NCBI GenBank assembly: GCA_951804945.1
Contig: OX638159.1
Location: forward strand, 49,972,001-50,036,000
Source: Podarcis cretensis
Lineage: Eukaryota
DNA: 64,000 nucleotides
Direction: 5' to 3'
Shown: piece by piece, positions 27,530 to 28,490 of the stretch
Position numbering within the stretch: the first letter of the stretch is position 1
Layout: every line of letters starts with the position of its first letter
Translations under genes and position numbers: made by a program
Notes under the pieces: model-generated
Seen by the model: only the letters and a program-made list of their open reading frames with translations
Told to the model about the DNA's origin: nothing
Databases searched by the model: none

Positions 27530-28490
27530 CTTCAAAAGAAAATAAAGCTCCATTTTTTTGTCTGACCCAAACATTAATTAGAGTTGCCATTCTAAGTTTG
27601 ATAATACTAAGTTTGATAATATTAATAGAGGAAAGCAAAGCTTTTAAAATTTTTGAATCATTTCTTCAAGACACTGAGCAGCTTAAAATGAATATGTGAA
27701 AAAGTTTACCTCTGAAATACGTGGTTTAACTGCAAATTGCAGTAAACAAGACTTTTATAAAGATCATTGTCTATGTGCTGCAAAAAAAAGGTATACTCTT
27801 AACTGCAGCTCTTAATGCTCGGTGTCTTAACTTGGTTGATGGAATCTAGCTGGCTTTTGGGAGTTGAATTCAGGTGGCAAGGAAGGCTTTGCTGGAAGAA
27901 CCCAATTTTAAGTAGATGTATTTCATTTGCTGGTTGAATAACATCTTATGTAATCCTATTCAGTTGCGAACTGAAGGGGAAGGAGAAGGTAAACACAAAA
28001 CTGTTAACCATGTAGGATTTTGTTTCTTTACAGTTTTGTGCACTTAACAGTTAAATTTACAGAATTTACTCTGGATATAAAGATTCTGTAACCCATGCTG
28101 CGGAATGTGTTTCTTCAGCAAAGTGTATATGTTTATGTTTTTTATCCTTAGCTTATTAGCGCCGGTCCAAAGCCTTCTAGCAGAGACAATTGAATCCTGT
28201 CAGGGATTGCTGCCAAGACATCGGAAGGATTTTTGACCAAGGTTTTCTAAAGCTCAATGTCACACCTGCCATATTTTTGAGGGGGTTTGGTTGCATAGTC
28301 CTAGCATTTACTGTTACTTTTGTGTTTTGTCTTTTCCCCCCTTCTTGTCTTTGTCTCTCTCTTCTCTAGAATTAAGCAGTGTTCACACTAGCTTTGAAAC
28401 AGTTGACTGGGTAATACTTAATTCACACCTGGAATTGAAGGCGCATGTCATACCTGTTAACTTTTTAATAATGAAATAGTGTGGACACAG
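27530..28490 (+). other. Upstream arm (A) of a predicted long-range intronic RNA duplex in ZFR pre-mRNA
   Basis: Multiple nested helices complementary to 30435-31275, e.g. 27861-27887 with 31070-31097, 28260-28272 with 30663-30675, 28482-28490 with 30435-30443. Confidence 0.7.

What the first reader, a model, noticed from the sequence alone, without database searches (positions are those of the whole stretch)
28304..28416. 41-nt cassette exon candidate with a looped-out polypyrimidine tract, frame-equivalent to exon 16
Seen: a pyrimidine-rich tract of about 55 nt, stronger than those of most real exons here, ending TCTCTAG| at 28369, then 41 nt and donor TGG|GTAATA (28410/28411). In the duplex the tract (28304-28362) is bulged out while the AG and exon start are paired. 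41 nt is 3n+2, like exon 16. Included alone, it keeps frame (ELSSVHTSFETVDW replacing about 33 DZF residues); included together with exon 16, it frameshifts; without the donor, it reads to TAG 28477-28479. Inference: a poison or mutually exclusive exon acting as the output of the switch.
Basis: partly seen in the sequence, partly recalled or inferred. Interest (0 to 1): 0.7.

Follow-up and report, generated by a model that had tools for sequence, protein, structure and literature searches.

The report
Hairpin-hidden poison exon in reptile ZFR
An intron of the reptile gene for the RNA-binding splicing regulator ZFR holds a 41-base exon-like stretch with an unusually strong entry signal and an exit signal predicted to be buried in an RNA hairpin; a horned-lizard gene model uses the same stretch, and it would likely send the mRNA to decay if included, but no spliced read was seen.

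Summary
The window holds a squamate ZFR gene. The 41-nt candidate (28370-28410) is there as described. Its acceptor has the best pyrimidine tract of 881 intronic YAGs and beats 14 of 14 real acceptors. A Phrynosoma gene model joins exon 15 to the same stretch with the same borders (12 of 14 residues). A local hairpin (28376-28491, z -3.95) buries the exon body and donor instead. The mutually exclusive, protein-making reading fails: one sample of a relative carries a 1-nt insertion giving 42 nt and an in-exon stop, and 0 of 127 ZFR proteins show exon 16 replaced. All 10 reads laid were unspliced, a weak test. Best reading: a normally silenced poison or decoy exon beside human ZFR's known NMD event, exon 16 skipping. 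The scan noted similar designs in other genes, none in ZFR.

The parts
26065..26206 (+). ZFR exon 15 (142 nt), weak donor GAG|GTTCGG
   Evidence: 87-96% identical to ZFR proteins; donor 6 of 11 U1 matches; exon number counted back from the last exon, assuming 20 exons (recalled)
26363..26415 (+). possible upstream partner of 28260-28301 (predicted; would cross the core duplex)
   Evidence: -39.4 kcal/mol, 0 of 40 shuffles as good; only third-best site in the whole gene; absent from the nested fold
28152..28250 (+). conserved intronic block behind a second, weaker acceptor (AG ending 28151)
   Evidence: Merops gene model P0106 reads exon 15 into the orthologous block, 24 of 32 residues identical; in this window the acceptor gives a stop at the third codon
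28209..28244 (+). 5' arm of the predicted long-range duplex
   Evidence: helices at p 0.81-0.99; best partner among 1556 windows, 0 of 60 shuffles; none of the 8 lizard-bird residue differences falls in it
28304..28369 (+). candidate branch point (A 28310), 59-nt pyrimidine tract and acceptor AG
   Evidence: branch loop unpaired p 0.98, tract 0.68, TAG 0.57 in a local fold
28370..28410 (+). 41-nt candidate poison or decoy exon
   Evidence: same borders in Phrynosoma model P0010; 0 of 10 reads spliced
28376..28491 (+). predicted local hairpin covering 29 of 41 exon bases and the donor GT
   Evidence: -36.8 kcal/mol, z -3.95, 0 of 200 shuffles; rank 8 of 475 windows of the gene; weakened to -30.3 in the relative's alleles
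30761..30858 (+). ZFR exon 16, not visible (N run); place inferred only
   Evidence: inferred from the Lerista read-through peptide P0002 matching the frame after the N run and the 98-nt human length
31518..31551 (+). 3' arm of the predicted long-range duplex, in intron 16
   Evidence: reciprocal best partner of the 5' arm; its conservation was not tested
31687..31782 (+). ZFR exon 17 (96 nt)

Best explanation
The 41-nt stretch is likely a normally silenced poison exon of ZFR: it has a very strong acceptor, its donor is predicted to be buried in a local hairpin, and including it ahead of exon 16 shifts the frame to a premature stop that would trigger nonsense-mediated decay. Shown: the splice signals, the frame arithmetic, the same borders in a second lizard's gene model, and a length change in a relative that keeps the stop but destroys the open frame. 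Predicted: the hairpin over the donor, and a 28-bp duplex from just upstream of the tract to intron 16 that loops out this exon and exon 16 together. Inferred: opening the hairpin lets U1 define the exon and gives 15-poison-16 (decay); closing the long duplex favours 15-17 (decay, the event known in human); the productive 15-16 path lies between. Untested: that ZFR-ILF2, which binds intronic duplexes, sets the balance and so controls its own level.
For: Acceptor best of 881 intronic YAGs and above 14 of 14 real acceptors. P0010 (Phrynosoma) joins exon 15 to ELSSVHTRFEIVDW with identical borders. Hairpin z -3.95, rank 8 of 475; of the two Phrynosoma residue changes one needs a change at unpaired 28400 and the other can be made at unpaired 28392 (or paired 28390), and the insertion allele lies in the unpaired 5' end. 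AG and GT unchanged in the 10 reads of a relative; both tract changes are C>T. Both the 41-nt and the 42-nt allele give a premature stop with exon 16 kept. Duplex core: reciprocal best match, 0 of 60 shuffles, 5' arm invariant at peptide level in a bird. Human ZFR already uses unproductive splicing at this spot (exon 16 skipping, median psi 0.177; PMC10123112 supplement). ZFR binds conserved intronic duplexes and ILF2 knockdown raises ZFR mRNA about 2.5-fold (bioRxiv 10.1101/2022.06.15.495552).
Against: 0 of 10 reads laid on 28304-28440 were clipped at either border. Only 1 of 127 ZFR proteins fetched carries the exon, none from birds or mammals, and that model is an automated one that also drops ordinary exons, so it shows conserved signals, not use. 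The relative's fixed G28402A turns a G-C pair of the hairpin into A-C, and with G28440A costs 6.5 kcal/mol; about 5 differences in 137 nt is no better than the overall distance suggested. No ZFR poison exon in the catalogues that could be read. Cycloheximide did not change total ZFR mRNA in ZFR-knockdown cells (PMC5861047 passage).
Confidence: 0.48

Rival explanations
1. Decoy exon: the strong acceptor binds U2AF and U2 but is rarely joined because the donor is masked; it competes with the exon 16 acceptor and holds intron 15 unspliced in the nucleus.
For: 10 of 10 reads unspliced and on the sense strand. Proteins that run from exon 15 into intron 15 exist: Anolis sagrei isoform X2 (P0003) and an 865-residue product on a 2828-nt contig (P0061, 15 members), which points to otherwise spliced RNA entering intron 15. 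Exon 15 donor is weak. Decoy model known from SF3B1 (PMC6097662, search listing only).
Against: No exon depth was measured, so retention was not quantified; 2-5 reads per 1.9 Gb may be ordinary pre-mRNA. Assembled contigs can join mature and unspliced paths. Not exclusive of the poison reading.
Confidence: 0.24
2. Pseudo-exon: the tract is a spacer or protein-binding site (for example PTBP1-type CU repeats) between conserved RNA structures that act on exon 16; the AG and GT are incidental and never used.
For: No spliced read; middling donor; indel and hairpin-weakening changes in a close relative; a gene predictor will pick any strong acceptor, so P0010 needs no RNA support; the known human event involves exon 16 only.
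Against: Both borders coincide in a second lizard lineage with 12 of 14 residues kept, similar to coding exon 15 (43 of 47); the anatomy (branch candidate, AG-free zone, AG, hairpin starting 6 nt into the exon and covering the GT) is orderly.
Confidence: 0.21
3. Mutually exclusive partner of exon 16 that makes an in-frame protein with 14 residues in place of 33.
For: 41 and 98 nt are both 3n+2 and 15-candidate-17 is open to the normal stop. DZF proteins regulate mutually exclusive exons.
Against: 42-nt allele with a stop after 7 codons in 5 of 5 reads of run X21, 0 of 5 in the other two; V-to-I change in 9 of 9 reads of the relative; exon 16 peptide identical in 96 of 103 proteins and its second half aligns with the conserved DZF core of ILF3 in 4AT7; no sequence likeness to exon 16; 0 of 127 proteins with this junction; the exons are 2.3 kb apart, so no steric exclusion.
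Confidence: 0.04
4. Paired frame-restoring event: the 41-nt exon is used with an acceptor 67 nt upstream of exon 16, adding 36 residues in the variable linker of the DZF domain.
For: This is what P0010 encodes; the exon 15/16 joint falls in a gapped, low-confidence part of the ZFR-ILF3 alignment; upstream extensions of exon 16 also appear in a rhinoceros and a bird model (P0063, P0121).
Against: One automated model; predictors pick such acceptors to close a frame; the 42-nt allele stops inside the exon.
Confidence: 0.03

Closest known systems
BRD3 cryptic poison exon 5b and BRD2 exon 3b (PMC10789245, passages read)
   Same: Short unannotated or minor frameshifting exon in a conserved intronic block, enclosed by a long-range pair of about -30 to -35 kcal/mol (here -37.4), low steady-state inclusion
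   Different: There the pair encloses only the poison exon and was proven by antisense oligos and compensatory mutants; here it encloses the candidate and the essential exon 16, a second local hairpin masks the donor, and nothing is tested
Human ZFR exon chr5:32380181-32380278 (hg19), annotated essential exon whose skipping causes NMD (PMC10123112 supplement rows)
   Same: Same gene, same two introns, same outcome (decay)
   Different: Skipping of exon 16, not inclusion of an extra exon; it is the only ZFR event in that catalogue
Decoy exons of SF3B1 intron 4 and OGT intron 4 (PMC6097662, PMC12017769; search listings only)
   Same: Exon-like signals inside a long intron of a regulator gene, rarely joined
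   Different: Intron retention was not quantified here and no decoy test was possible
Structure-controlled mutually exclusive exons regulated by ZFR/ILF3, such as ATE1 7a/7b (PMC10790352 passage)
   Same: Competing long-range pairings near alternative exons; DZF proteins implicated
   Different: ATE1 exons are homologous and both code; this stretch is unrelated to exon 16 and its frame is not kept

Membership tests
Poison cassette exon (AS-NMD) | Canonical acceptor and donor inside an intron | tested here: met
Poison cassette exon (AS-NMD) | Inclusion creates a stop more than 50 nt before the last junction | tested here: met
   stop by early exon 18 at the latest, two junctions downstream; in-exon stop for the 42-nt allele
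Poison cassette exon (AS-NMD) | Junction reads show the exon is spliced in | tested here: inconclusive
   0 of 10 reads in 3 raw runs, 0 contigs in 1 run; low depth, no neighbouring exon in the stretch laid
Poison cassette exon (AS-NMD) | Inclusion rises when NMD is blocked | not testable with these tools
   no such run available
Poison cassette exon (AS-NMD) | Splice sites conserved across species | tested here: inconclusive
   same borders in one Phrynosoma protein model; AG and GT intact in a close relative; no DNA from distant species, no sign in birds or mammals
RNA-structure-controlled poison exon (BRD2/BRD3 type) | Stable complementary pair flanking the exon | tested here: met
   computed: -37.4 kcal/mol, reciprocal best, 0 of 60 shuffles
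RNA-structure-controlled poison exon (BRD2/BRD3 type) | Both arms conserved | tested here: inconclusive
   5' arm invariant at peptide level in a bird model; 3' arm not tested; full PCCR list too large to read
RNA-structure-controlled poison exon (BRD2/BRD3 type) | Disruptive and compensatory mutants change inclusion | not testable with these tools
   bench test
Mutually exclusive exon pair | Both exons keep an open frame under selection | tested here: not met
   42-nt allele with in-exon stop; amino-acid changes
Mutually exclusive exon pair | Isoform with one exon in place of the other is on record | tested here: not met
   0 of 127 proteins; the one model with the exon keeps exon 16 too
Decoy exon (intron detention) | Host intron is over-retained | tested here: inconclusive
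   unspliced sense reads and intron 15 read-through products, no exon depth for comparison
Decoy exon (intron detention) | Removing the decoy sites lowers retention | not testable with these tools
   bench test

The most novel reading that the evidence does not exclude
ZFR, a double-stranded-RNA-binding splicing regulator, reads its own level from a set of duplexes in its own introns 15-16 that form a two-sided trap: too much clamping skips the ultraconserved exon 16, too little opens the hairpin and admits the 41-nt poison exon, and both errors end in decay. This would give a testable reason for the extreme conservation around ZFR exon 16.
Probability: 0.15. Interest if true: 0.7.

Novelty: new member of a known kind. 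Interest (0 to 1): 0.4.

Why it matters
ZFR controls many splicing events and the interferon response, and it is known to contain an ultraconserved exon, but how its own unproductive splicing is set has not turned up in the papers I could search. A defined exon, hairpin and duplex give concrete targets for antisense and minigene tests of self-regulation by a dsRNA-binding protein. If the exon proves squamate-only or unused, the result is an ordinary cryptic exon and the duplex around exon 16 is the part worth keeping.

Tried and rejected
Exact-seed repeat search and blastn found no long inverted repeat for this region. Pairing of 28140-28420 with the flank just after the N run was tried first and dropped as unstable and below other windows. 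Pairings with anything under the N run cannot be computed. Rfam has no family here; its only hit in the window is SNORA66. The 28140-28520 block is single-copy in the own genome. Protein search with the 40-residue read-through frame: 0 of 6 candidates scored, too weak even to report P0010. Run search: no RNA holder on record; 14 guessed-RNA contig runs held 0.41-0.50 of the words, only one (X14) was laid and gave 0 records, so these shares are not used as evidence. Exon 15, exon 16 and exon 17 were not in the stretch laid, so joints to them could not appear; the tool also drops human-like reads unseen and the longest exact match inside the exon is 28-32 nt for this relative, so spliced reads may be missed (inference). 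A-to-I editing at the A-C mismatch at 28402: 0 of 9 reads show G. Papers: ten searches found no description of an extra exon in ZFR intron 15; supplements of PMC6547761, PMC11632617, PMC8052449 (5 held files; 3 large ones unreadable) and PMC5861047 (some files cut) gave no ZFR event; PMC3446288 lists Zfr only in GO gene lists in the rows seen (2 of 8 places); PMC10573301 had no readable supplement; five ids were not held, among them the journal version of the DZF paper, whose tables may bear on autoregulation. No structure or complex prediction was run.

Full report
Setting. The window holds a complete ZFR gene on the + strand; exon 15 (26065-26206) is 87-96% identical to ZFR proteins, best to squamates. 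The exon after it is hidden by the N run at 30676-30887; exon 17 is 31687-31782. In human the hidden exon is 98 nt and is annotated as an essential exon whose skipping leads to nonsense-mediated decay, with median skipping 0.177 over GTEx tissues; it is the only ZFR event in that catalogue (PMC10123112, supplement rows and passages). Exon numbers assume 20 exons (recalled).

The observation. The letters are as stated: a 59-nt tract with 83% pyrimidines, AG ending at 28369, 41 nt, donor TGG|GTAATA, and a read-through stop at 28477-28479. The acceptor is exceptional: 93% pyrimidines over 40 nt against 38-72% for the 14 real acceptors I could place, the only one of 881 intronic YAGs at that level, with a 63-nt AG-free zone and one yTnAy branch candidate at -60 (the consensus motifs are recalled). 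The donor is ordinary: 6 of 11 U1 matches, as in three of the 15 real donors. Joined to exon 17 the frame stays open; with a 98-nt exon between, a stop comes by early exon 18 at the latest.

Structure. A core of five helices, 28209-28244 with 31518-31551, has pairing probabilities 0.81-0.99. Each arm is the other's best partner among 1556 windows of the gene, and 0 of 60 shuffled arms did as well within introns 15-16. The arms were chosen after seeing the fold, so this overstates significance somewhat. The core loops out the candidate and exon 16 together. Its extension over the AG and exon start can be drawn but at background energies, and has probability 0.0 in a three-segment ensemble. Instead a local hairpin, 28376-28491, pairs 29 of 41 exon bases and the donor (z -3.95, 0 of 200 shuffles; rank 8 of 475 windows, several of the better ones being in inverted-repeat elements). 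The branch candidate and tract stay mostly open. A further pairing, 26363-26415 with 28260-28301, beat 40 of 40 shuffles but is only third-best in the gene and crosses the core, so it is a lead.

Other species. Of 127 ZFR proteins fetched (120 of 434 hits listed), 103 join exon 15 to exon 16, and one, a Phrynosoma platyrhinos model (P0010), joins exon 15 to ELSSVHTRFEIVDW and then to an upstream-extended exon 16. Both borders match the candidate; 12 of 14 residues agree, against 43 of 47 for exon 15. A targeted search around that insertion scored 26 of 75 candidates and found no second carrier. The model skips ordinary exons elsewhere, so I take it as evidence for conserved splice signals, not for use. 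A Merops model (P0106) reads exon 15 into the block at 28152-28250; all 8 differences from this window lie before 28209, none in the duplex arm.

Reads. Three raw RNA runs of a related organism (about 12% of each read) and one contig run were laid on 28304-28440. Ten reads fitted, all unspliced and all in the orientation expected for sense RNA in a stranded library; the contig run gave none. No read was clipped at 28370 or 28410. The test is weak for the reasons given under Tried and rejected. The reads carry useful variation: AG and GT unchanged; two C>T changes in the tract; G28402A in 9 of 9 reads, which changes a residue and breaks a hairpin pair; and one extra A after 28373 in 5 of 5 reads of X21 and 0 of 5 in the other two. 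The insertion makes the exon 42 nt with a stop after 7 codons. It removes the frame equivalence with exon 16 but keeps the poison outcome. It rests on one sample.

Mechanism. Most likely a normally silenced poison exon: an exposed, strong acceptor with a masked, middling donor, included rarely and degraded when included with exon 16. The long duplex would push the other way, towards the 15-17 skip known in human. ZFR binds conserved intronic duplexes, favours NMD-insensitive isoforms of ultraconserved-exon genes, and its mRNA rises about 2.5-fold on ILF2 knockdown (bioRxiv 10.1101/2022.06.15.495552, passages), which makes self-regulation plausible but untested; that text does not describe ZFR acting on its own splicing in the passages found. 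The decoy reading shares most of this anatomy and is supported by products that run from exon 15 into intron 15 (P0003, P0061). A pseudo-exon remains possible. The mutually exclusive reading is unlikely: exon 16's 33 residues are identical in 96 of 103 proteins and partly align with the conserved DZF core of ILF3.

Comparison and novelty. It works like BRD3 exon 5b (PMC10789245, passages) but membership is unproven, because inclusion, NMD sensitivity and structure dependence were not shown. Ten paper searches and the readable supplements gave no record of this exon; large tables and the journal version of the DZF paper could not be seen, so a human orthologue may be catalogued. Other papers seen: PMC10790352, PMC10835012, PMC5861047 (passages), PMC12607236 (a reference entry), PMC11632617 (abstract and outline). 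Earlier notes of this scan hold no ZFR finding. Verdict: a credible new member of a known kind, unverified in RNA; interest 0.4.

Noticed in passing
window 10320-10456 +: SNORA66 H/ACA snoRNA match (118.6 bits, full length) inside a ZFR intron; I recall a different host gene in human, so it may be a relocated copy
   Followed up: no
window 22044 and 34564: Two ZFR introns begin with GC (AAG|GCAAGT)
   Followed up: no
window 28152-28250: Second candidate acceptor (AG ending 28151) at the start of a block conserved to a bird; its use would stop translation at the third codon; no good donor before 28411
   Followed up: partly
window 26363-26415 with 28260-28301: Predicted pairing that would bring the exon 15 donor close to the candidate branch point and would cross the core duplex
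   Followed up: partly
window 31451-31503, 28505-28635, 31709-31834, 31268-31393: Further stable local folds: z -4.0, -2.9, -3.9 and -3.3; one covers the exon 17 donor region
   Followed up: no
proteins P0010, P0063, P0121: Three gene models (lizard, rhinoceros, bird) extend exon 16 upstream by 21-22 nearly identical residues, hinting at alternative acceptors in the conserved flank
   Followed up: partly
proteins P0003, P0014, P0050, P0061: Products that end shortly after exon 15 by reading into intron 15, one on a transcript-sized contig; possible conserved retention of intron 15
   Followed up: partly
window 24929-25250, 35965-36225, 47769-48083; 16285-16551 with 62582-62846: Small repeated elements with terminal inverted repeats, likely non-autonomous DNA transposons
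   Followed up: no
window about 42800-57500 +: A second gene follows ZFR; peptides look like MTMR12 (name recalled, not searched)
   Followed up: no
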